A stretch of 38,739 bases of DNA from Chloroflexota bacterium (GCA_005883405.1 VBGG01000126.1:1-38739); one strand, 5' to 3'; positions 899-36,746 are shown, numbered from the stretch's first letter. Notes: a model not told the origin generated them from the letters alone. A program made the numbers and translations.

Positions 899-1360
899 CG
901 TTCGGAATCCGCGCCAGACACGACCTGGCGCGATCAAGCAGTGCTCGGTCCGCTCGATCGCGGCGATCGCGCAGAGGCGCTGGCGGCATACAGTGCTGAG
1001 GGAGCGCGCATGGCCGTCACCGTCGACGACATGATCGAGGCCTTTCTGGCCAAGAAGCACACGGTCGGCGCGGCACTGGAAACGCAGGCGGAGACATCCT
1101 TCGACCAGACGCGTTTCATCGCCATCCTTTTGTCGATCCTGGCGGTCGGCCTCGGCCTGGGCATCGGTTTCTTCCTTTGGCGCAGCATTGCTCGCGGTGT
1201 CGGCCAGGTCGCCACCGCCGCGAAGGGCCTGGCCGTTGGCGATCTCAACCAACGCATCCCCCTCGAATCGGACGACGAAATCGGCCAGATGGCAGCGGCC
1301 GCGCGCGAGATGATCGCGTGGACGGGCTGTTGTTCGCCCGCACGATCGCTGAGCGTCTGA
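899..1360 (+). pseudogene. Remnant of a methyl-accepting chemotaxis protein or HAMP sensor (end of four-helix bundle, TM2, HAMP)
   Basis: TM helix FIAILLSILAVGLGLGIGFFLW followed by HAMP (AAKGLAVGDLNQRI..SDDEIGQMA). The N-terminus and signalling domain are absent. Confidence 0.65.
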
Positions 1361-2852: not shown

Positions 2853-5193
2853 GGCAACCCAGATCCGCGGCATCGGTCACAGCGTCCGCCGTAAGGAGGA
2901 CCCGCGGTTCATCCGTGGGATCGGCAAGTACATCGACGATGTCAAATTGCCGGGCATGCTGTACATGGACATCGTGCGCAGCCCGTATGCACACGCGCGC
3001 ATCACCCGCATCGATTCCTCGGAAGCGCTGAAGGTGCCCGGCGTGGCGGCGGTTGTCACTGGCAAGGAGCTGGAGGCAGCCGGATTGGCGTGGATGCCCA
3101 CGTTGATGAGCGACACGCAAATGGTGTTGCCGACGGACCACGTCGTCTATCAGTCGCAGGAAGTCGCCGTGGTGGTGGCCGAGACGCGTTACGGGGCGGC
3201 CGACGGGGTCGCCGCCGTGCAGGTGGAGTACGAGCCGCTCGAGCCGGTGGTCGATCCGTTCAAGGCGCTCGAGCCGAATGCTCCACTTGTTCGACCTGAC
3301 AAAGACAAGAAGTCCAACCACATCTGGCACTGGGAAGCCGGCGATCGCGACGCGACCAAGCGTGCCATTGATGGCGCCGACGTGGTGGTCGCCCAGGACA
3401 TCTATATTCCTCGGATTCACGTTGCTTCCATCGAGACATGCGGCTGCGTCGCCAGCTTCGACCGGGTCAGCGGGAAGCTCACCGTCTGGATGACGACGCA
3501 GGCGCCGCACGCCATCCGCACTGTTTTCTCGCTGGTGTCAAAGATTCCCGAGCACAAGATCCGCGTCATTTCACCCGATATCGGTGGCGGATTCGGTGGC
3601 AAGGTTCCGGTCTATCCAGGCTACGTGTGTGCGGTGGTGGCAGCGCTGACCACCGGCCGTCCGGTGAAGTGGATCGAGGACCGCAGCGAAAACCTGCAGG
3701 CGGACTCCTTCGCGCGCGACTACCACATTCGCGCCGAGCTGGCCGCCGACACGAATGGCAAGATGCAGGCGTTGCGCATCAAGACGATCGCCGACCACGG
3801 TGCTGCCGACGCGGCTGCCAATCCGTCGAAGTTTCCGGCCGGACTGTTCTCCATCTGCACCGGCTCGTATGACATGCCGACGGCGCACGTCGAGGTTGAC
3901 GGTGTCTACACCAACAAGCCGCCCGGAGGAATCGCCTATCGCTGCTCGTTCCGCGTCACCGAGGCGGTCCACACCATCGAACGCATGGTGGATTCCCTGG
4001 CGCTGAAGCTGAACATGGATCCGGCCGAACTGCGGATGAAGAGCTTCATCCAGCCCGAGCAGTTCCCCTACAGGTCGGCGCTGGGCTGGGAGTACGACAG
4101 CGGCAACTATCCGGCCGCGTTGCGCAAGGCGCTCGACAAGATCGGCTATGCCGATTTGCGCCGAGAGCAAGCCGAAAAGCGGGCGCGCGGCGAGCTGATG
4201 GGCATCGGCCTGTCGACATTCACCGAGATCGTCGGCGCCGGGCCGTCGAACACCTTTGACATCCTGGGCATCAAGATGTTCGACAGTGCCGAGATTCGCG
4301 TCCACCCGACCGGCTCGGCGATCGTCCGCATCGGCGTCCAGACCCAGGGTCAGGGGCACGAGACGACGTTTGCGCAGATCGTGGCCGAGGAGCTCGGTCT
4401 GCCGGTGGAAAACATCGAGGTGGAGCACGGCGATACGGACACCGCGCCGTACGGCCTGGGCACCTACGCCAGTCGCAGCACGCCGACCGCCGGCGCAGCG
4501 ACGGCTATCGCCGCTCGCAAGATCCGCGACAAAGCGGCTCGACTGGCCGCGCATCTGCTCGAGTGCAGCGTCGACGACCTGGAGTGGCAGAACTATCAGT
4601 TCCAGGTAAAAGGTGCCCCCGAGCGCTCGAAAACGATGGCTGACCTGGCGTTCGCGGCCTACACGAACCACCCACAGGGCATGGAGGCCGGCCTCGAAGC
4701 GGTCTGCTACTACGATCCGCCCAACCTGACGTTCCCGTTCGGGGCGTACGTGGCCGTCGTGGATATCGACCGCGGCACGGGTGAGGTCAGGGTGCGGCGC
4801 TTCCTCGCCATCGACGATTGCGGCACCATCATCAATCCGATGGTGGTCGAAGGCCAGGTACACGGTGGTCTGACCATGGGCCTGGCGCCGGCGCTCTACG
4901 AGCAGATCTGGTATGACGCCGATGGGAACATGCACGGTGGCACGCTGATGGACTACCTGGTGCCCACGGCGATGGAGACGCCGCGTTGGGAGACGGATCG
5001 CACCGTGACGCCCAGTCCGCATCATCCACTCGGCGCCAAAGGCGTCGGCGAGTCCGCTACCGTCGGCGCGCCACCAGCCATCGTCAATGCAGTCGTCGAC
5101 GCACTGAGCCACCTCGGTGTCACGCACATCGACATTCCCATTACCCCGCCACGCCTGTGGCGCATCCTCCAGGACAAGGGAGTCGCGCTTTGA
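2845..5193 (+). CDS. coxL: Aerobic carbon monoxide dehydrogenase large (Mo-Cu) subunit, form I
   Basis: Form I active-site motif AYRCSFR; also [18 protein letters not shown] and GAKGVGE. Confidence 0.96.
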
Positions 5194-29081: not shown

Positions 29082-29154
29082 GCGCCCGTAGCTCAGCGGA
29101 TAGAGCATCAGTCTTCGGAACTGAGGGTCGGGAGTTCGAATCTCTCCGGGCGCG
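29082..29154 (+). tRNA. tRNA-Arg, anticodon TCG (CCA not encoded)
   Basis: Acceptor stem GCGCCCG/CGGGCGC; anticodon stem TCAGT/ACTGA with loop CTTCGGA; T-loop TTCGAAT; TAGAAT -10 at 29035. Confidence 0.93.
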
Positions 29155-29272
29155 CCTCGTCAGGCGCGTACAGACCCGTGTCATAACAACAACTATCGAC
29201 ACGAGGCGTCACGTAGACCGTCACGCCGGACGCAAGCAGCGTCATCTGGACGTCACAATAAAGTCAGACTGT

Positions 29273-29350
29273 TGGGGTGAGCGACCGGGGTCGAACCGGC
29301 GACCTTCGGAGCCACAATCCGACGCTCTAACCAACTGAGCTACGCCCACC
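29273..29350 (-). tRNA. tRNA-His, anticodon GTG (G-1 and CCA encoded)
   Basis: G-GTGGGCG..TCGGA-TTGTGGC-TCCGA..GTTCGA..CGCTCAC-C-CCA; TATAAT at 29445-29450 on the minus strand. Confidence 0.95.
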
Positions 29351-30245: not shown

Positions 30246-31025
30246 GTGCCGGGGGAGAAGGCTCTGAGCTTGAATCCGAGCGTCTCGGTCGTCATTCGAG
30301 CCAAGAACGAGGCGCGCTTCATCGGCGAGACGCTGGAAGCCATCTTCACCCCCGAGGCGGTGCGTCGTCCCCGCCATGTCGTCGTAGTCGACTCGGGCTC
30401 GACCGATGGCACGCAGGCAATCGTCAACGCGTTTCCCACCACCCTGATTCAGATCCGTCCCGACGAATTCACGTATGGCTACGCGCTCAACCTGGGCGTG
30501 GCCAATTGCGACGCGGAGATCGTGGCCACGCTGAGTGCGCACTCGCTGCCGAGCAGTCCCGATTGGCTGCTCAATCTGGTCGAGCCGTTTACCCGACCGC
30601 GAGTTGCCGGCGTGTATGGCCGCCAACTGCCACGGTCGAACGCGACCATCTTCGAGCTACTCGGCATGCGGCTCACTGGCGTGCTGAGCGACACGCCTCG
30701 CGTCCTGGATCGTCAACCGCTCTTCTCGAATGCCAACGGTGCGTTCCGAAGATCGCTGTGGCTGGAGCACCCGTTCGATGAAAACGTCGGCGGCGCCGAA
30801 GACATCGCCTGGGTGCGCACGATGCAAGAACGCGGCTACCTGATTGCCTACCAGCCGACGGCGTCGGTGTACCACTCGCATGGGGAGCCGATCTGGCGAC
30901 ATCTGCGGCGCGCCAGCCGCGACGTGCCGACCGTGGTCGGCAACTTCTTGCACCTTGGCTCTGGTGGTCACGTGGTCCACAAGCCAGTGCAAGCGGACCC
31001 GGTCACGCGACCCGCGCCCGACTAG
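30246..31025 (+). CDS. GT2-family glycosyltransferase (rhamnosyltransferase-like); start uncertain
   Basis: SVVIRAKNE, VVDSGSTD, LSAH, FSNAN, AEDIAW and VYHSH motifs. Confidence 0.88.
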   Translation: MPGEKALSLNPSVSVVIRAKNEARFIGETLEAIFTPEAVRRPRHVVVVDSGSTDGTQAIVNAFPTTLIQIRPDEFTYGYALNLGVANCDAEIVATLSAHSLPSSPDWLLNLVEPFTRPRVAGVYGRQLPRSNATIFELLGMRLTGVLSDTPRVLDRQPLFSNANGAFRRSLWLEHPFDENVGGAEDIAWVRTMQERGYLIAYQPTASVYHSHGEPIWRHLRRASRDVPTVVGNFLHLGSGGHVVHKPVQADPVTRPAPD

Positions 31026-32958
31026 CTCCCGCTTTGGCAGCGGGGGCCATCGGCAGGCGCACCCAGAATGCCGATCCGCGCCCGAGCGTACTCCTGACGC
31101 CGATGCTGCCCGCGTGGGCTTCCACCAGTTGTCGCGCGACCGCCAGGCCCAGGCCGGTGCCGCGCACCGCCAGGGTCGCGCCATGCCTGCCGCGATAGAA
31201 CTTTTCGAAGATGCGTTCGCAGTCTTCGGCGGCGATGCCGGTGCCCTGATCGATCACCTGGATCTCGACGCTCTCGTCGACAACGGCGGCGCTGATGCGA
31301 ATCTCGGTGCCCCGCGCCGAGTAGCGAGCCGCGTTCGACAACAGATTGTTCATCACCTGGCCGAGCCGATCGGCGTCGGCCATCACGCTCGGGAGTGGCG
31401 CCGCCAGCTGAGCGACCACGTGGTGGGTCGGAGTGGCCTGGCCAAAGCCGCTTGCGACGCGCGTGAGCCACGTGGCGAGATCGAGGCGGTCGGTCTTGAG
31501 CTCGATGCGGCCGGCGTCCAACCGCGACGTGTCGAGCAAATCGTCGACCAGCCGCAACATCAACGCCGAGCTGGTGTGAATCTCATCGGCGCTCTGGCGG
31601 ATCGTGCCTGGCTCGGTCAGCATGCCGTCGACCATGAGCTCGGAATAGCCGTGGATGATCGTGAGCGGCGTGCGGAGCTCGTGCGAGACCTGGCCAAGGA
31701 ACTCGTCCTTGAGGCGCGCTACTTCTCGCAGTGCCTCCATCTCGCGCCGCGCCTCCGCCTGGCCCGCCTCGCGATGCAATCGAGCAGTCTCCTGCGCCAG
31801 GCGTGCCGTCTCCAGCGTGACGGCGGCATAGTCGGCGAGCGTCTTGAGCACGAGCATCTGATCGAGATCGAAGAAGGCTGCCCGACCAGCATTCACCTCG
31901 CGCCAGGCGATCAATCCGCCCACGGGCCGCCCGTAGCCGGCGCCGAAGGGGATGGCCGCGACCGCAAGTCGAGCGCAGCGTACGTCCTCTGGTACCCAGG
32001 TCGGGACGACTCGGCCTGGCCCGATGTGCAAGTCGATCTGGCGCGGCTCGAGAACCAGCTGCTCGAGGATTGCCGCGCGCAGCGCCGGGCGGTCCACCTC
32101 GCACGCGACGTGCTCGGAGAACGCGGGCGGCGAGCCCATCGGCACAAGCGCCAGGCCGTCGAGCTTGAGCCCTTCGAGGACCGCACCCTCGGCGATCGCC
32201 TGGAACGCCCGCTCAGGATCGAGCGTGCCGACCACCGCACGTCCGACCGCGCTGGTAACGGCCATATTGCGCGAGCGGCGGTCGGCGCGGTCCATGGCCT
32301 GTTTTGCCAAATACAGCAGCCCGGCTGGCACGAGCAACATGGGCGCCCAGTTCGGGGCCGAATTCAGCATCGCCGCGAGCATTGCCCCGACGGTGCCGAG
32401 TCCTACCTCGCCCATGGTTTGCACCGAGAGGTTGCCGCGCGTCACCTCCCATACTGGACGACGTTTATCGAGGGCGACCACCACCGCGACCAGACCCGCC
32501 GAAACGACGCAGTAGCTGCAGCTCACGACGATGGCGATCAGCGGATCGGTCCAGCTCCCACCCGGCGACACTCGATCGGGACCGCCAAAGCGCGTGGCCA
32601 GATGGGCCGCGGCGCCGACCGCCAGGGTTATGCTGGCCACGTTGAAGGCCAGTTTCGGCGGCGCCAGCGGGTGACGCAGCGCGCGTAAGCCCACGCCCAA
32701 CGCGGCGATGGCCATCGCCAGGCCTGGCGGCAGCAGAAACGCGGCGGCGATGTGGGCCACCGCGCTCGCGTTGGTGTACCAGCCGCGCCGGACTTCAAAA
32801 TGCAAGTGATCACCGATCGCGGACAACACGATTAGCGCGATCGTGACTCCGGCCGACCACGCGTACGGCCACTGAGCAACTACGCTCAGATCGTGGCCGA
32901 GCAGCAGAACTGCGTTCGCCACGACCAGCGCGATGTACAACTTGAGCAAGGGTCCCAT
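31003..32958 (-). CDS. Sensor histidine kinase with polytopic membrane input domain, GAF-like region, HisKA and HATPase
   Basis: About 7 N-terminal TM segments (including PPKLAFNVAS); SHELRTPL, NLLSNA, DQGTGI and GTGLGL motifs. Confidence 0.9.
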   Translation of the reverse strand: MGPLLKLYIALVVANAVLLLGHDLSVVAQWPYAWSAGVTIALIVLSAIGDHLHFEVRRGWYTNASAVAHIAAAFLLPPGLAMAIAALGVGLRALRHPLAPPKLAFNVASITLAVGAAAHLATRFGGPDRVSPGGSWTDPLIAIVVSCSYCVVSAGLVAVVVALDKRRPVWEVTRGNLSVQTMGEVGLGTVGAMLAAMLNSAPNWAPMLLVPAGLLYLAKQAMDRADRRSRNMAVTSAVGRAVVGTLDPERAFQAIAEGAVLEGLKLDGLALVPMGSPPAFSEHVACEVDRPALRAAILEQLVLEPRQIDLHIGPGRVVPTWVPEDVRCARLAVAAIPFGAGYGRPVGGLIAWREVNAGRAAFFDLDQMLVLKTLADYAAVTLETARLAQETARLHREAGQAEARREMEALREVARLKDEFLGQVSHELRTPLTIIHGYSELMVDGMLTEPGTIRQSADEIHTSSALMLRLVDDLLDTSRLDAGRIELKTDRLDLATWLTRVASGFGQATPTHHVVAQLAAPLPSVMADADRLGQVMNNLLSNAARYSARGTEIRISAAVVDESVEIQVIDQGTGIAAEDCERIFEKFYRGRHGATLAVRGTGLGLAVARQLVEAHAGSIGVRSTLGRGSAFWVRLPMAPAAKAGASRARVA

Positions 32959-33053
32959 ACCAGGTGCCAGGGCGCCGCTCGGTTGGAGCTCCTGCCTGCG
33001 TCTCGCGCAGGCAGGAATGTTCCAGCTAAACGTTGGCCAAGCTCAGATCCAGT

Positions 33054-33203
33054 TCAGCTCCAGCCGAAACCGGTCAGGCCAGCCAGCATGCGAACGATGC
33101 CATCCGCCATGTGGATCGAAACGGGGACGAAAAGAACCGCCAGCAGCGTCGGAGCTGCCTCTCGTTTTGGGAATCGCTCCCACCAACTCGCGAAGAACTG
33201 CAC
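33054..33203 (-). CDS. 49-aa hydrophobic peptide ending GFGWS; candidate signal-peptide precursor
   Basis: GGGAGGG SD then GTG at 33203: MQFFASWWERFPKREAAPTLLAVLFVPVSIHMADGIVRMLAGLTGFGWS. It lies 95 bp upstream of the kinase on the same strand. Confidence 0.62.
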   Translation of the reverse strand: MQFFASWWERFPKREAAPTLLAVLFVPVSIHMADGIVRMLAGLTGFGWS

Positions 33204-33229
33204 TAATCCCTCCCACCGTGTATCGTTCC

Positions 33230-33254
33230 GGTCACGTATTACAAAAACGTGACC
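33230..33254. promoter_or_regulatory. Palindrome GGTCACGT-N9-ACGTGACC upstream of the peptide gene
   Basis: Perfect 8-bp inverted repeat; either an operator or a 5' hairpin. Confidence 0.45.
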
Positions 33255-33423
33255 TGTCCGACTATCGCTTGTGCATGGCCCGTTTGGACTCCCCCATCCG
33301 GGGTGTTTCGAACAGCCAGAAGTACCGGCCACCCCGGTACTTTCGGCTGCCCCACCGCAACCCGTGGGCAGCCGAGCTCGAACGCCTACTCGGCGCAGGC
33401 CAGTTGCGCCTCGCAAGACGGCA

Positions 33424-33439
33424 TGTTACGAATTGTTAC
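33424..33439. promoter_or_regulatory. Direct repeat TGTTAC-N4-TGTTAC; candidate OmpR-family binding site
   Basis: 10-bp-period direct repeat in the divergent promoter region. Confidence 0.5.
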
Positions 33440-33480
33440 ACAAGGGGAGCTGAGCATCGCCGACCACGGAGGTTGACTTA

Positions 33481-34233
33481 GTGGCCGAGACGTCGATTCT
33501 GCTTGTGGAAGACGACCTGGATACGGCGCGGTCGCTAACCAAGGCATTGGAGGCCAGTGGCTATCACGTCACGGCCGTTGACACCGGACTCGAAGCTCGC
33601 TCGATCATCGAGCACGTGCATCCCGATCTGATCCTGCTCGATCTGATGCTGCCCGACACCGACGGCCTGGTGTTGACGACCGCGCTCAAGACGATCACCA
33701 GCGCCCCGATCATTATCTGTAGTGCCCGCACGGAGCAGGTCGATCGTGTACTGGGCCTGAAGCTCGGCGCCGACGACTTCGTCGCCAAGCCGTTCGACCT
33801 CGACGAGCTCGAGGCGCGCATCGAGGCGGTCCTGCGCCGCGCCTCGCGTGTGCGCGAGGCCTCGAACGTCCCGCCCGATCAGATTCAGGTCGGCGAGCTG
33901 ATCGTCTCGCAATCGCGGGGAAGCGTGACGCTGAGCGGACAGCCAGTGCACCTGACGCCGACCGAGTATCGGCTGCTGGTGGCGCTGGCCAGCCGGCCCG
34001 ACGAGGTGCTCACCCGCGAAGTGTTGGGGCAGCTCGTGTGGGGATACCAGGACCTGGGTACCGGGCACCTGATCGACGTGCATATCGGACGTCTGCGCCT
34101 CAAGCTGCGCCGCGTGTCCCGGTCGGCGCCCGTGATTGTGACTGTCCGCGGCAAGGGCTACACCATCGCGTCTGAAGGCGCCGAAGCGGCCGCCGGATCG
34201 GAGCACTCCACCGAAGCCTCGCCAGGCGTCTAG
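33481..34233 (+). CDS. OmpR/PhoB-family response regulator
   Basis: GGAGG RBS; receiver domain plus winged helix (LTPTEY, VWGY, IDVHIGRLRLKL, TVRGKGY). Confidence 0.93.
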   Translation: MAETSILLVEDDLDTARSLTKALEASGYHVTAVDTGLEARSIIEHVHPDLILLDLMLPDTDGLVLTTALKTITSAPIIICSARTEQVDRVLGLKLGADDFVAKPFDLDELEARIEAVLRRASRVREASNVPPDQIQVGELIVSQSRGSVTLSGQPVHLTPTEYRLLVALASRPDEVLTREVLGQLVWGYQDLGTGHLIDVHIGRLRLKLRRVSRSAPVIVTVRGKGYTIASEGAEAAAGSEHSTEASPGV

Positions 34234-34246
34234 CGACCGGCCAGAG

Positions 34247-34295
34247 CGCGGCCACCGGACTTCGACTCGACAGGGTTTCGGCCGCGTTTTTGGGC
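34247..34295 (+). repeat. Degenerate B unit of the repeat family; may act as a terminator
   Basis: CGCGGCCACCGGACTTCGA..TTTCGGCCGCGTTTTT compared with CGCGGCCACCGAGATTTCGA..TTTCGGCCGCGTT. Confidence 0.6.
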
Positions 34296-34415
34296 TCCGC
34301 GCCGAGGGGGACGCTCAACCCGATCTCAACTCCGGCGGCATTCGCACCGTGGGGATGCTCAACAACTCAGCCCTACGATCCGCGGTGGAATGTACCTGGC
34401 GGAGGCGCGACCACA

Positions 34416-36746
34416 ATGACCGAGCTTAGCGGCACGTTGGACGGGGTTGGACTGCCGGCCATCGTGCGCTTCCTCGCCGGCCTGAAGAAGACGGGATGCC
34501 TGCGCGTCTCTCACGGGGACTGGCAGGGTGAGGTCTTCTTCGATGCGGGTCAGGTGACTGGCGCGAGGCTCGGTTCGCGTTCGGGTTTATCGGCGCTGGA
34601 TGCGTTGGTGCAGGCGCTGCCGAGCGGTAGTTTCGCGTTCGCGGCATCGGAGCGTGCCGAGGGCGGCCCGACGATCCACATGTCCCCCGAGGTCTTCGAG
34701 GCGCACCTGGACGAGCTGGCCTCGCGTTCCGCGACCGGCATGCCGAAGCTTCCACCGGTCGATGCGGTGCCCTCGTTAGTCGCCGACCACGACCCGAACC
34801 GAGGTGAAGAGCCACTGGCCCTGGACCGGGGCACGCTGCAGACGCTTCTGGCGGTCGATGGACAGCGGACGGTGCGCGACATCGTGGCGCACCGGGGGTC
34901 CTTCGATGCCCTGTGGCAGCTTCGCAACCTGGTCGAAATTGGCCTGGTGCGGCTCGAAGCGCGCGCCGCCACCGTGGTTGCCTCTCAACCGCGCGTGCAT
35001 GAGCCGGCGATCGTGCGGCCCTTCCCAGTGCCGGACCAGGCGTCTACCGCTTCGAGCCACTGCCCGAAGCTGGGTTTCGAGGACGACCCGAGCAACTCAT
35101 TCGGTCGGCCAACACGGCTACACCGCTGCTTTGCGGCCGGGACGGCGCAGCCATTGTCCCTCGACCAGCAGCGCGAGCTGTGTCTCAGCGACCACTTCGG
35201 ATCGTGCCCGCGGCTAACGATGCCCGCGATGACGCTAGAGGCTGAGGCCGAGGCGGCTGCGCGAGCCGTGCCTGATGATCCACGCATCGTCCGCCTGCCG
35301 TCGGTCGCGCGAGCCACCGCGGCGGCTCGCAACGGAACTGCCAGTGCCGCGCCGTCTGTCACGCAGCGGCGCGCGCCGAGTCAGGATGTCGGTGCCGCAC
35401 GATCGACACCCCTGCGCGCGCGGATCGAGCGGCAGGCTCGGCCCGCGTCGGATGCCGCGGTCGCCGAGCCGCCTCTACCCGAACCAGCCGTACGGTTCGC
35501 GCCCGAGGCACGTCCGGTGCAGCCAAAGGCTGCGACGCGGGCGCTGTTCATGGACCCGCTCGGCGTCCGTGTGCGCGGCGTGCGTTTGTCGTCGCTCGGC
35601 GCGGGTCTCGTCGGCGTGCTGGTGCTGGCCGTGTTCGGTTATTTGCTGGCGCCGAAGCTGGCCTCGCTGCTTGCCGACGATACGATTGACGCGTCACGAC
35701 TGCCAAACACCAGTGCAATAGCCGCGGGCACGCCTGTCGCGCAGATCACGTCGTCGCGGCAGACGCCGGCGCGGTCCGCCGCCCAATCCGCGGTGGCCAG
35801 CAATCCGCCTGGCGCTGCCGCTGTCCAGACGACAGCTGCCAGCAATCCGACCGGTGCTGCCGAGGCCCAGACTGCGGGGGCAACTAGTCCGAGCGGCGCT
35901 GCTGCTGCCCAGATGACGGTGGCGAGTAATCCGAACGGGGCTGCGGCTGCCCAGACCACGGGGGCGAGCAATCCGAACGGGGCTGCCGCCGCCCAGACCA
36001 CAGCGCCCGCCAATCCGAGTGGCACAGCCGCCCAACCAGCGGCGGCGGCCATTAGGCCGAATCCCGCCGCCGCCAGTGCTGCTGCTGCCGCTGCGAGTGC
36101 CGCCGCGGCGCGCGTCCAACCCACCCTCGCGCCAACCATCGCGCCAACCCCGGCTCAGCCAACCGCGGTACTGACCGCGGCTGCCCGTACCCTGCTCGAC
36201 GAAGACTTCACCGCTAGCGCCTTGAATTGGCCGAACGATCCGCAAGGCACGGCATGGCTCACCAGCGGCAGCTATCGGCTGGCGACGCGCGATGCGAGCA
36301 AGTTCGTGGCGATCAGCGCTCCGGTCGCGCAGACCCCGAACGATGTCGTCGTCAGTGCCACGTTACGCAAGGTGAGCGGGCCGATCGGCGGTGGCTATGG
36401 CATTATCCTCCGCGACCAGGGGCCCCTGCCGCAGGAGGGCACGCGCCAGGACGGCCGTTATTACGTGCTCGAGGTCGGTGACAAGGGCGAGGTCGGGATC
36501 TGGCGACGAGAGTCCGACCACTGGGTCGACGTGCTGCCCTGGCAGCACTCCGATATTGTGAAGACCGACTCGTCGACCAACGAGTTGACGGTTCGCGCGA
36601 TCGGCAACACGCTGAGCCTGTTCGTCAACGGCACACAGGTCACCACCCGAACGGACGACGCGCTCACCTTTGGCAGCGTCGGCTTGTTCGTCGGCGGCGA
36701 CGGCAACCAGGTGGCTGTCGAACACTTCAGCGTTCAGACGCCCTGA
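34416..36746 (+). CDS. Membrane protein: DUF4388/PATAN-like domain, Cys/His motif, TM helix, repeat stalk and C-terminal DUF1080-like beta-sandwich
   Basis: GGAGG RBS; LSGTLDGVGLPAIVRFL..KTGCLRV; CPKLG..HRC..C..CP; TM helix; GGYGII..NELTVRAIG..LFVNG..GSVGLF. Confidence 0.8.
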   Translation: MTELSGTLDGVGLPAIVRFLAGLKKTGCLRVSHGDWQGEVFFDAGQVTGARLGSRSGLSALDALVQALPSGSFAFAASERAEGGPTIHMSPEVFEAHLDELASRSATGMPKLPPVDAVPSLVADHDPNRGEEPLALDRGTLQTLLAVDGQRTVRDIVAHRGSFDALWQLRNLVEIGLVRLEARAATVVASQPRVHEPAIVRPFPVPDQASTASSHCPKLGFEDDPSNSFGRPTRLHRCFAAGTAQPLSLDQQRELCLSDHFGSCPRLTMPAMTLEAEAEAAARAVPDDPRIVRLPSVARATAAARNGTASAAPSVTQRRAPSQDVGAARSTPLRARIERQARPASDAAVAEPPLPEPAVRFAPEARPVQPKAATRALFMDPLGVRVRGVRLSSLGAGLVGVLVLAVFGYLLAPKLASLLADDTIDASRLPNTSAIAAGTPVAQITSSRQTPARSAAQSAVASNPPGAAAVQTTAASNPTGAAEAQTAGATSPSGAAAAQMTVASNPNGAAAAQTTGASNPNGAAAAQTTAPANPSGTAAQPAAAAIRPNPAAASAAAAAASAAAARVQPTLAPTIAPTPAQPTAVLTAAARTLLDEDFTASALNWPNDPQGTAWLTSGSYRLATRDASKFVAISAPVAQTPNDVVVSATLRKVSGPIGGGYGIILRDQGPLPQEGTRQDGRYYVLEVGDKGEVGIWRRESDHWVDVLPWQHSDIVKTDSSTNELTVRAIGNTLSLFVNGTQVTTRTDDALTFGSVGLFVGGDGNQVAVEHFSVQTP
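35796..36035 (+). repeat. Coding 42-bp tandem repeat, about 6 copies (ASNPxGAAAAQTTx)
   Basis: Visible in both the DNA and the translation. Confidence 0.85.

What the first reader, a model, noticed from the sequence alone, without database searches (positions are those of the whole stretch)
31003..34233. Candidate peptide-pheromone system: Trp-terminal peptide, polytopic histidine kinase and divergent regulator
Seen: a 49-aa ORF with a strong SD, a hydrophobic core and a ..LAGLTGFGWS end, immediately upstream of and co-oriented with a kinase whose input is about 7 TM helices with no large extracellular domain. An OmpR-type regulator is divergent, and the shared region holds a direct repeat and a palindrome. 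Established: peptide-sensing kinases such as ComP and AgrC are polytopic and encoded next to their peptide, and ComX has a modified Trp near its C-terminus. Inference: an undescribed quorum-sensing-like or intramembrane peptide-regulated circuit. No ComQ- or AgrB-like maturase is present in the window. Nearby GT2, GH18 and DUF4388 envelope genes are possible targets.
Basis: partly seen in the sequence, partly recalled or inferred. Interest (0 to 1): 0.8.

Follow-up and report, generated by a model that had tools for sequence, protein, structure and literature searches.

The report
Small Trp-tailed partner of MASE9 kinase
The 49-residue reading frame is a real, conserved tiny membrane protein that across Chloroflexota is encoded beside one type of membrane-embedded sensor, so it is more likely a built-in partner of the sensor than a secreted pheromone.

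Summary
A 49-aa ORF (33054-33203, minus strand; GTG start, GGGAGGG Shine-Dalgarno) lies 95 nt upstream of a 651-aa histidine kinase, with a divergent OmpR-type regulator. The ORF is a gene. All 6 genomes with the orthologous kinase keep it, with a start codon and SD. Gene callers predicted 186 relatives. RNA-library contigs from 2 studies cover it. The kinase input is a MASE9-like intramembrane sensor domain. Small single-helix ORFs ending in Trp precede 20 of 28 homologous sensor loci, against about 0.01 expected per locus. In paralogues a DUF5317 membrane protein sits between or after them, sometimes fused to an MFS transporter. The window's locus lacks DUF5317 and its small protein has a longer tail. 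Most family members have only 4-6 residues after the helix, and specific helix residues are invariant. I therefore favour an intramembrane subunit or modulator of the sensor, analogous to MgrB, at about 0.55. A short exported C-terminal peptide is not excluded, at about 0.2. Agr- and ComX-type membership fails. No binding or processing is shown.

The parts
33054..33203 (-). Small ORF, 49 aa plus stop: N-terminal motif FFASWWERFP, one hydrophobic helix, variable tail, end G-F-G-W-S
   Evidence: Orthologues with ATG and SD in 5 other genomes. Family of 186 predicted proteins. RNA-library contigs cover it.
33208..33214 (-). Shine-Dalgarno GGGAGGG, 4 nt before the GTG start
   Evidence: Purine-rich GGAGG-like sequences stand before the ATG in all 5 orthologues.
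31003..32958 (-). Sensor histidine kinase, 651 aa: MASE9-like membrane domain, GAF-like domain, HisKA, HATPase_c
   Evidence: 64 orthologues at 58-100% identity over residues 1-230.
32269..32958 (-). Membrane input domain (residues 1-230), MASE9-like
   Evidence: Pfam MASE9 passes its cut-off in orthologues P0131 (26.8 bits) and P0158 (25.3; cut-off 24.3). The window's own domain gave no Pfam hit. The helix pattern fits the published description.
32990..33016 (-). Perfect 11-bp stem hairpin in the 95-nt spacer between small ORF and kinase; no U tract
   Evidence: I4. Spacer fold -45.6 kcal/mol, z -2.9. G003 has a similar strong hairpin by eye. The hairpin is absent where the spacer is 13-22 nt (G001, G006).
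33223..33261 (-). Conserved hairpin just upstream of the SD; in orthologues its loop holds a third GTAACA
   Evidence: (I1).
33424..33439 (.). Direct repeat GTAACAATTCGTAACA, about 40 nt before the regulator's start codon: candidate binding site for the OmpR-type regulator (inferred)
33481..34233 (+). OmpR-type response regulator, divergent from the small ORF and kinase
   Evidence: 80-86% identical in 4 orthologous loci.
34290..36746 (+). DUF4388 protein, co-directional and downstream of the regulator; conserved neighbour
   Evidence: Present in 4 of 4 orthologous loci.
30246..31025 (+). GT2 glycosyltransferase, convergent with the kinase, 3' ends overlapping by 23 nt; conserved neighbour
   Evidence: Present in 4 of 4 orthologous loci at 76-81% identity.
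33023..33269 (.). Stretch covered by contigs from metatranscriptome libraries: X18 33023-33228, X19 33025-33228, X20 33052-33269
   Evidence: Contigs give neither strand nor level.

Best explanation
The ORF encodes a small bitopic membrane protein. Its N-terminus (FFASWWERxP with basic residues) is in the cytoplasm. One helix crosses the membrane. A short tail ending in Trp sits at the outer face.

It belongs to a Chloroflexota family whose members are encoded with MASE9-type intramembrane sensor domains, which are fused to histidine kinase, HD-GYP or GGDEF-EAL outputs. Usually a DUF5317 membrane protein is encoded alongside. I propose that its helix packs against the MASE9 helices, and against DUF5317 where that is present. 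The penultimate Trp would anchor it at the lipid-water interface. In this reading it acts as an obligatory subunit or a dose-dependent modulator of the kinase, as MgrB does for PhoQ.

It is the first gene of the kinase operon. It lies beside a promoter region that holds a candidate operator for the divergent OmpR-type regulator, so its level could feed back on signalling. The window's version has lost DUF5317 and gained about 10-15 extra tail residues.

Shown: the gene is real and conserved, it is linked to the sensor, and RNA libraries contain it.
Inferred: topology, contact with the sensor, and regulation by the response regulator.
For: (1) Reality of the gene.
- 6 of 6 genomes with the orthologous kinase hold the ORF 13-102 nt upstream of the kinase. 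The five others have ATG starts and SD-like sequences. Lengths are 46-57 aa and identity to the window's is 35-45%.
- A profile of 14 members finds 186 predicted proteins at E<=0.01.
- The same profile finds 66 clusters at 50% identity in 1.84 billion representatives.
- Contigs of 3 metatranscriptome runs from 2 studies cover the ORF.

(2) Linkage to the sensor.
- Of 28 homologous sensor loci with at least 900 nt upstream, 18 have such an ORF by an automatic filter and 2 more by eye.
- The filter's background is 0.010 per 1500 nt.
- 9 of 10 further MASE9-HD-GYP loci have a 29-45-aa ORF of the same build directly upstream.

(3) Triad with DUF5317.
- The middle gene of the paralogous cassettes is DUF5317, at E 1e-19 to 1e-21.
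- All 3 DUF5317 genes of this genome have small ORFs of the family beside them; the one on C140 looks frame-disrupted.
- The gene order varies between loci.

(4) Helix-specific conservation.
- In 97 unique 43-aa members, A-13, G-8, A-6 and W-2 are invariant.
- S-16 is present in 95 of 97.
- These small residues lie mostly 3-4 residues apart, as on one face of a helix.
- The N-terminal W-E-R-x-R motif is near invariant.

(5) Tail length. Only 4-6 residues follow the helix in most members.

(6) MASE9 was proposed to bind its ligand within the membrane (passages of bioRxiv 10.1101/2021.11.05.467447).

(7) Precedent. MgrB is a 47-aa membrane protein in the PhoQ/PhoP regulon. Its TM region is needed for PhoQ binding, its N-terminal lysines matter, and W47A causes a 10-fold loss (passages of PMC8404706).
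Against: - No physical contact is shown.
- The small protein evolves faster than the receptor: 35-45% identity against 58-74% for the MASE9 domain. That pattern is also seen in pheromone precursors.
- The uncharged stretch is only 17-18 residues in several members. It ends in A/G-x-A/G followed by a six-residue tail, which also looks like a signal peptide with a cleavage site.
- Tandem copies exist: two identical in G042:C28 and two divergent in G000:C519. This is unusual for a 1:1 subunit.
- DUF5317 has two invariant Asp residues and is fused to MFS exporter-like proteins in other families. That hints at processing or transport.
- The window's own MASE9 match is below Pfam detection.
- Six sensor loci showed no small ORF: L059, L062, L066, L067, L069 and L077.
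Confidence: 0.55

Rival explanations
1. Precursor of a short exported signal peptide. The body of the small protein acts as a signal peptide or membrane anchor. The last residues (about 6 in most relatives, about 15-20 in the window's subfamily) are cut off at the outer face, perhaps by DUF5317 or signal peptidase. The MASE9 sensor then detects them, giving a quorum-sensing-like or autocrine loop.
For: - Layout: a basic N-region, a 17-18-residue uncharged stretch ending in A/G-x-A/G, then a constant six-residue tail A-[DGES]-x-[KRH]-[WG]-x in short members.
- The tail positions at -3 and -1 are among the more variable columns (2.2-2.5 bits).
- Tandem gene copies exist.
- It diverges faster than the receptor.
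- DUF5317 has invariant D150 and D168 and an NGGxMP motif in a loop/sheet region that I infer to face outward.
- DUF5317-MFS_3 fusions occur next to MASE9-HD-GYP genes.
Against: - Invariant residues inside the hydrophobic stretch and a conserved N-terminal motif are not expected of a mere signal peptide.
- W-2 is invariant and E/D-4 frequent, with acidic in 92 of 120 relatives. These positions are conserved rather than hypervariable.
- The DUF5317 model (pLDDT 92.7) matches no solved peptidase: best Foldseek E 3.4, and nothing from a profile search of PDB sequences.
- The window's locus has no DUF5317, maturase or exporter.
- No cleavage is shown.
Confidence: 0.2
2. The small protein works mainly with DUF5317 and a transporter, and the sensor reads the state of that machine, as in co-sensing by transporters. 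In the window the small protein is a leftover of that cassette with altered or reduced function.
For: - A small ORF plus DUF5317 occurs without an adjacent MASE9 gene at G000:C196.
- DUF5317 is fused to MFS transporters.
- DUF5317 is found in 116 of 401 sampled Chloroflexota genomes, and also in Thermus thermophilus and Thermotoga maritima controls.
Against: - The window-type subfamily is kept with the kinase in 6 of 6 orthologous loci without DUF5317.
- It forms many diverged clusters, so it is maintained rather than decaying.
- In MASE9-HD-GYP loci the small ORF sits next to the MASE9 gene, not next to DUF5317.
Confidence: 0.13
3. Regulatory leader ORF or small RNA. Translation of the ORF, or the RNA itself with the downstream hairpin, controls read-through into the kinase gene, and the peptide has no role of its own.
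For: - A strong hairpin lies between the ORF and the kinase.
- RNA-library contigs cover the ORF region.
Against: - Conservation is at the protein level, with in-frame length changes, an invariant Trp and a helix face.
- The family also precedes DUF5317 and HD-GYP genes at spacers of 13-100 nt, without a conserved hairpin.
Confidence: 0.07
4. Chance ORF in G+C-rich non-coding DNA.
For: - G+C at the third codon position is 0.70, against 0.82 in neighbouring genes.
- Many spurious ORFs overlap the region.
Against: - It is conserved, with start codon and SD, in 6 of 6 orthologous loci.
- It has 186 database relatives.
- The background rate is 0.010 per 1500 nt.
Confidence: 0.02

Closest known systems
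MgrB-PhoQ (E. coli): small membrane protein that inhibits its sensor kinase (PMC8404706, passages read)
   Same: - Under 50 aa, one helix, basic cytoplasmic N-terminus, short outer tail with a functionally relevant terminal Trp.
- It acts through its TM region on a histidine kinase.
- It belongs to the regulon of the cognate regulator. Here that last point is only suggested, by the gene's position next to a candidate operator.
   Different: - No sequence similarity: no Pfam or NCBIfam hit.
- MgrB is unlinked to phoQ; this gene is the first of the kinase operon.
- PhoQ has a periplasmic sensor domain; here the sensor is the intramembrane MASE9 type.
- MgrB has periplasmic cysteines; this protein has none.
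- No DUF5317 partner is reported for MgrB. This last point rests on my recall.
MASE9 sensor domain (TM1467 of T. maritima, HdgA of S. venezuelae; bioRxiv 10.1101/2021.11.05.467447, passages read)
   Same: - Eight helical segments, two of them short.
- No sizeable outer loops.
- Promiscuous fusion to signalling outputs.
- Orthologues of the window's kinase pass the Pfam cut-off.
   Different: - The passages read list HD-GYP, HD-GYP-GAF-GGDEF and GGDEF-EAL outputs, not a histidine kinase.
- The word DUF5317 does not occur in that text.
- The passages read describe no small partner ORF. The paper's supplementary figures were not seen.
AgrD/AgrB/AgrC/AgrA and ComX/ComQ/ComP/ComA peptide quorum sensing (features from my own knowledge)
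   Same: - A small precursor-sized gene next to a polytopic kinase.
- A Trp near the C-terminus, as in ComX.
- The small gene diverges faster than the receptor.
   Different: - No AgrB or ComQ homologue.
- HisKA kinase and OmpR-type regulator, instead of HPK10/LytTR or the ComP/ComA types.
- No Cys for a thiolactone.
- The tail is often only 4-6 residues.
Phr-type exported oligopeptide signals of Firmicutes (features from my own knowledge)
   Same: A precursor of 30-45 aa with a signal-peptide-like body and a possibly active C-terminal oligopeptide.
   Different: - No RRNPP-type cytoplasmic receptor is adjacent. An oligopeptide permease was not looked for.
- The NCBIfam PhrK model scores only 14.3 bits against a cut-off of 35, for one relative.
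- The hydrophobic segment has invariant residues.

Membership tests
Agr-type peptide quorum sensing | AgrB-type membrane endopeptidase encoded beside the precursor | tested here: not met
   No AgrB match among the 16 window ORFs scanned against Pfam. The conserved block of 4 orthologous loci holds only GT2, kinase, small ORF, regulator and DUF4388.
Agr-type peptide quorum sensing | LytTR-type regulator, and a Cys in the precursor for the thiolactone (definition recalled) | tested here: not met
   The regulator is Response_reg plus Trans_reg_C and the kinase has HisKA. The 49-aa protein has no Cys.
ComX/ComQ/ComP | ComQ isoprenyl transferase beside the precursor (definition recalled) | tested here: not met
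   No polyprenyl-synthase match among the 16 ORFs scanned.
ComX/ComQ/ComP | Trp near the C-terminus of the precursor | tested here: met
   W is penultimate in the window protein, in 115 of 120 relatives, and in 59 of 66 cluster representatives. Modification of the Trp is not testable here.
MASE9 (PF20972) | Match to the Pfam model above its gathering score | tested here: inconclusive
   The window's domain gave no hit even at E<=10. Orthologues P0131 (26.8 bits) and P0158 (25.3 bits) pass the 24.3 cut-off. Paralogues and HD-GYP relatives score 15-22 bits.
MASE9 (PF20972) | Eight helical segments, two too short to span the membrane, short loops, fused to signalling outputs | tested here: met
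   The AF2 model has helices at 3-25, 36-51, 66-75, 78-95, 100-123, 137-165, 176-200 and 202-242. The description comes from passages of the bioRxiv paper. Relatives carry HD-GYP and GGDEF-EAL outputs.
MgrB-like small membrane regulators of sensor kinases (functional class, not a sequence family) | Physical binding to the kinase's membrane domain | not testable with these tools
   The one complex job gave no verdict (see Tried and rejected). Two-hybrid, FRET or co-purification experiments are needed.
MgrB-like small membrane regulators of sensor kinases (functional class, not a sequence family) | Under 50 aa, single helix, N-terminus inside | tested here: inconclusive
   The size and the single hydrophobic helix are seen directly. 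Topology is only inferred from the positive-inside rule.
MgrB-like small membrane regulators of sensor kinases (functional class, not a sequence family) | Expression under the cognate regulator (feedback) | not tested
   A conserved GTAACA-N4-GTAACA repeat lies in the shared region. Binding and regulation remain untested.
DUF5317 (PF17248) cassette | A DUF5317 gene adjacent to the small ORF and the sensor | tested here: not met
   It is absent from the window's locus and from its 5 orthologues. It is present in paralogous cassettes.

The most novel reading that the evidence does not exclude
The small ORFs are the precursors of a new class of very short (about 6-residue, Trp-containing) extracellular or membrane-surface peptide signals. 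DUF5317 is an unrecognised membrane peptidase with an outward-facing Asp pair that releases them, and in some lineages it is fused to an MFS transporter. MASE9 is their receptor. This would give Chloroflexota a peptide quorum-sensing system built from three families of unknown function. It would also assign a ligand class to MASE9 sensors, including those that control c-di-GMP turnover.
Probability: 0.2. Interest if true: 0.85.

Novelty: new variant of a known kind. Interest (0 to 1): 0.6.

Why it matters
MASE9 is a sensor domain with no known ligand, and DUF5317 is a family of unknown function. The library holds no paper with the word DUF5317. MASE9 appears in two papers, only one of them relevant.

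A conserved small Trp-tailed protein beside both gives a testable three-part membrane module. It also extends MASE9 to histidine kinases. And it supplies a cheap handle for probing how an intramembrane sensor is switched: a 30-50-residue protein, its Trp, and its small-residue helix face.

Whichever way it resolves, the result would apply to many soil Chloroflexota signalling proteins that control two-component and c-di-GMP outputs. That holds whether the protein proves to be an MgrB-like modulator or a peptide signal.

Tried and rejected
1. Complex prediction, kinase residues 1-230 plus the small protein, each with its alignment. Verdict 'no answer', score 0.00. This is neither support nor evidence against binding.

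2. DUF5317 as an LspA-like aspartyl peptidase. This was my recollection of a motif likeness. The AF2 model (pLDDT 92.7) has no Foldseek match in PDB better than E 3.4. A profile search of PDB sequences gave only chance hits. The idea is dropped as unsupported.

3. RNA cover. The RNA-library contigs did not cover 32300-33001 (kinase 5' part) or 33272-33595 (intergenic region). Short pieces at 33619-33818 with loose ends are conserved receiver-domain fragments of other organisms.

4. Whole-genome profile searches with the small protein (A3; A5) found strong hits only in the window's own family: 5 of 401 genomes, one of them probable noise. Only 17 candidates per genome were scored, and known members at G000:C519 were missed. 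The narrow range is therefore not reliable. Divergent members in other families were found only by reading loci.

5. The G027 hit (E 4.7e-5) lies inside a 758-aa gene on the other strand. I reject it as spurious.

6. A search for fused forms (A5, lengths 'longer') gave one 114-aa protein, which is an over-extended start. No fusion was found, which is weak evidence only.

7. ESM Atlas returned only unnamed clusters of 43-48 aa.

8. The sigma-70 promoter scan found no site. I name no transcription start.

9. Peptide/receptor co-variation was not attempted. Six related pairs give no power.

10. Regulon search with the direct repeat gave 5 sites at up to 1 mismatch, against 3 for the reversed control. 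There is no enrichment beyond the two exact sites.

11. The supplementary figures of the MASE9 paper were not seen. They may show neighbourhoods or architectures that bear on the novelty claim.

Full report
WHAT IS THERE. On the minus strand, the window holds a 49-aa ORF at 33054-33203. It has a GTG start, with GGGAGGG 4 nt upstream. A 651-aa histidine kinase follows 95 nt downstream, at 31003-32958. An OmpR-type regulator is divergent at 33481-34233. The ORF's G+C by codon position (0.62/0.48/0.70) has the coding pattern, though weaker than in neighbouring genes.

THE ORF IS A GENE. A six-frame search of 61 related genomes with the 49 residues found full-length or N-terminal matches in five genomes of the same genus. 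In each of them the match lies directly upstream of the orthologous kinase. In each, a divergent regulator lies on the other side.

All five orthologues start with ATG preceded by a GGAGG-like sequence. They are 46-57 aa long and 35-45% identical to the window's protein. M1, R10, P12 and W48 are invariant. Length differences keep the frame open in all six loci.

Every genome with an orthologous kinase (58-74% identity over the membrane domain) has the ORF: 6 of 6. A profile of 14 members finds 186 predicted proteins at E<=0.01. All that carry a name are 'hypothetical', and the named ones come from Chloroflexota MAGs. The same profile finds 66 clusters at 50% identity among 1.84 billion representatives.

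W is penultimate in 115 of the 120 listed proteins and lies within the last four residues in all 120. It is penultimate in 59 of the 66 representatives. Neither Pfam nor NCBIfam has a model for any of the seven members tested.

The DNA occurs in soil metagenomes: 17 runs hold at least half of the sampled words. Contigs from three metatranscriptome libraries of two studies cover the ORF, at 33023-33228, 33025-33228 and 33052-33269. Contigs show presence in an RNA library, not strand or level.

WHAT THE KINASE SENSES WITH. Pfam sees only HisKA and HATPase_c in the window's kinase. Two orthologues, however, pass the MASE9 cut-off over residues 67-185. Paralogues with GGDEF-EAL and relatives with HD-GYP give sub-threshold MASE9 matches over the same region.

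MASE9 was defined on T. maritima TM1467. It has eight predicted TM segments, two of them too short to span the membrane, and its ligand is proposed to bind within the membrane. It was listed with HD-GYP, HD-GYP-GAF-GGDEF and GGDEF-EAL outputs (passages of bioRxiv 10.1101/2021.11.05.467447). The AF2 model of the window's kinase shows that helix pattern, then a GAF-like fold, then the DHp and catalytic domains. A histidine-kinase output is thus an added architecture for a MASE9-like domain. 64 orthologous kinases were found in metagenomes.

THE WIDER CASSETTE. Paralogous sensors in the same family of genomes are preceded by two genes. The first is a 38-44-aa ORF with an N-terminal F-x-S-x-W-E-R motif, one helix and an [ED]-x-W-x end. 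The second is a protein of about 200 aa that is DUF5317, at E 1e-19 to 1e-21.

This genome has three DUF5317 genes, and each has small ORFs of the family beside it:
- C519: two small ORFs, then DUF5317, then MASE9-GGDEF-EAL.
- C140: a small ORF that looks frame-disrupted, then DUF5317, then a 970-aa kinase.
- C196: a small ORF, then DUF5317, then a large ATPase-like protein.

DUF5317 occurs in 116 of 401 sampled genomes of the phylum. It also occurs in the Thermus thermophilus and Thermotoga maritima controls.

In other families the order is small ORF, MASE9-HD-GYP, DUF5317. There 9 of 10 loci have a 29-45-aa ORF directly upstream of the MASE9 gene, ending KWH, RWA, KWL, GWGW, KGF, RGF or KGW. 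One of these carries two identical tandem copies. Elsewhere the order is small ORF, DUF5317, HD-GYP. In four loci examined, DUF5317 is fused to an MFS_3-type transporter.

An automatic filter defined the ORF type: 26-200 codon frame, basic N-region, uncharged 15-residue hydrophobic window, W or F in the last four residues. It finds the family in 18 of the 28 sensor loci with at least 900 nt of upstream sequence. Two more (L057, L078) are seen by eye. Two are ambiguous (L058 has a longer tail; L071 is frame-disrupted). Six have none (L059, L062, L066, L067, L069, L077); four of these six (L062, L066, L067, L069) are the weakest sensor matches. The same filter fires 85 times in the whole 6.17-Mb genome on both strands, which is 0.010 per 1500 nt.

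THE WINDOW'S VERSION. Here and in the five orthologous loci there is no DUF5317. The small protein keeps the N-terminal motif of the 38-aa DUF5317-linked type (FF-[DE]-SWW-x-R-V-P). It has an extra, variable 10-20 residues before a conserved G-[FWN]-x-W-[GSDEN] end.

The block GT2 | kinase-small ORF | regulator-DUF4388 is conserved in 4 of 4 orthologous loci fetched with wide flanks. GH18 is a neighbour in only one of them. The shared region holds GTAACAATTCGTAACA about 40 nt before the regulator's start. That repeat is exact in two orthologues and degenerate in three, and it is one of two exact copies in the genome. By analogy with OmpR-family direct-repeat sites, I take it as a candidate autoregulatory operator. 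This is inference. A conserved hairpin precedes the SD, and a strong hairpin without a U tract lies in the spacer before the kinase.

HOW IT MOST LIKELY WORKS. Two readings fit the anatomy.

For an intramembrane subunit or modulator:
- In 97 unique 43-aa members the hydrophobic segment is conserved at specific positions, not just hydrophobic. A-13, G-8, A-6 and W-2 are invariant and S-16 is present in 95 of 97. These small residues lie mostly 3-4 residues apart, as on one helix face.
- The cytoplasmic W-E-R-x-R motif is nearly invariant.
- Most members have only 4-6 residues beyond the helix.
- The gene travels with an intramembrane sensor through three different gene orders.
- MgrB offers a worked precedent.

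For an exported peptide:
- The uncharged stretch is short (17-18 residues). It ends in A/G-x-A/G and is followed by a six-residue tail of constant length.
- Tail positions -3 and -1 vary.
- Tandem copies occur.
- The small protein diverges faster than the receptor.
- DUF5317 has two invariant Asp residues and an NGGxMP motif in a sheet-containing loop, which I infer from the positive-inside rule to face outward.
- DUF5317 can be fused to a transporter.

The DUF5317 model resembles no solved peptidase, or any solved fold, at a useful score. Nothing shows cleavage.

I put the subunit/modulator reading at about 0.55 and the exported-peptide reading at about 0.2. A DUF5317- or transport-centred role gets about 0.13, a purely cis-regulatory leader about 0.07, and chance about 0.02.

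COMPARISON AND NOVELTY. The system is not a member of the Agr or ComX families. The maturase, kinase class, regulator class and Cys tests fail, and only the C-terminal Trp is shared. It works most like MgrB-PhoQ but shares no sequence with it, and unlike mgrB it is operon-linked to its kinase.

The full-text library has no paper with 'DUF5317'. It has two with 'MASE9', one of them irrelevant. The relevant one does not contain the word DUF5317, and the passages I read describe no small partner ORF. Its supplements were not seen. Searches for 'TM1467' and for 'HD-GYP' together with 'small membrane protein' (listing only) gave nothing on this.

I file it as a new variant of a known kind: a small membrane-protein partner of a sensor. 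It comes with an undescribed conserved triad of small Trp-tailed protein, DUF5317 and MASE9.

LIMITS. All functional statements rest on sequence, gene context and predicted structure. The complex prediction gave no verdict.

Noticed in passing
L114:1409-3436 (+), L116:1346-3529 (+), L118:1590-3620 (-), L119:1617-3638 (-): In other Chloroflexota families DUF5317 is the N-terminal domain of 674-728-aa proteins whose remainder is an MFS_3/MFS_1 transporter. These genes lie directly after a MASE9-HD-GYP gene.
   Followed up: partly
L123:948-1040 and 1104-1196 (-); G000:C519:2736-2846 and 2887-2997 (-): Tandem copies of the small ORF: two identical 31-aa copies in G042:C28, and two divergent 37-aa copies in the window's own genome.
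   Followed up: no
G000:C89:7292-7307 (L120:2993-3008): The only other exact GTAACA-N4-GTAACA in the genome lies about 370 nt upstream of a 741-aa protein that has a CxxCH haem-binding motif. It could be a second target of the regulator, or chance.
   Followed up: partly
G000:C140 (L071:2926-3090, -): The small ORF of this paralogous cassette seems split between two frames. The N-terminal motif is in one frame and the helix plus ERWG end in another. This is either an assembly error or a broken gene.
   Followed up: no
window 33313-33349: A palindrome with GTAC-N10-GTAC at its core is conserved in several orthologous intergenic regions. It may be an operator for another factor.
   Followed up: no
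window 33172-33184 and 33205-33217: A 13-nt direct repeat: the SD region (GGTGGGAGGGATT on the minus strand) nearly repeats the codons for W-W-E-R-F inside the ORF.
   Followed up: no
window 35700-36150: The DUF4388 protein carries a run of Ala/Pro/Asn-rich repeats of about 13 residues (..ASNP.GAAAAQTT..) between a predicted helix and its C-terminal domain (translation).
   Followed up: no
window 29082-29156 (+) and 29273-29349 (-): tRNA-Arg(TCG) and tRNA-His(GTG) lie between the methyltransferase gene and the stand-alone receiver-domain gene.
   Followed up: no
G000:C196:12123-13580 (L083:3-1445, -): Here the small ORF and DUF5317 are followed not by a MASE9 sensor but by a large protein with a P-loop (GPGGTGKT).
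   Followed up: no
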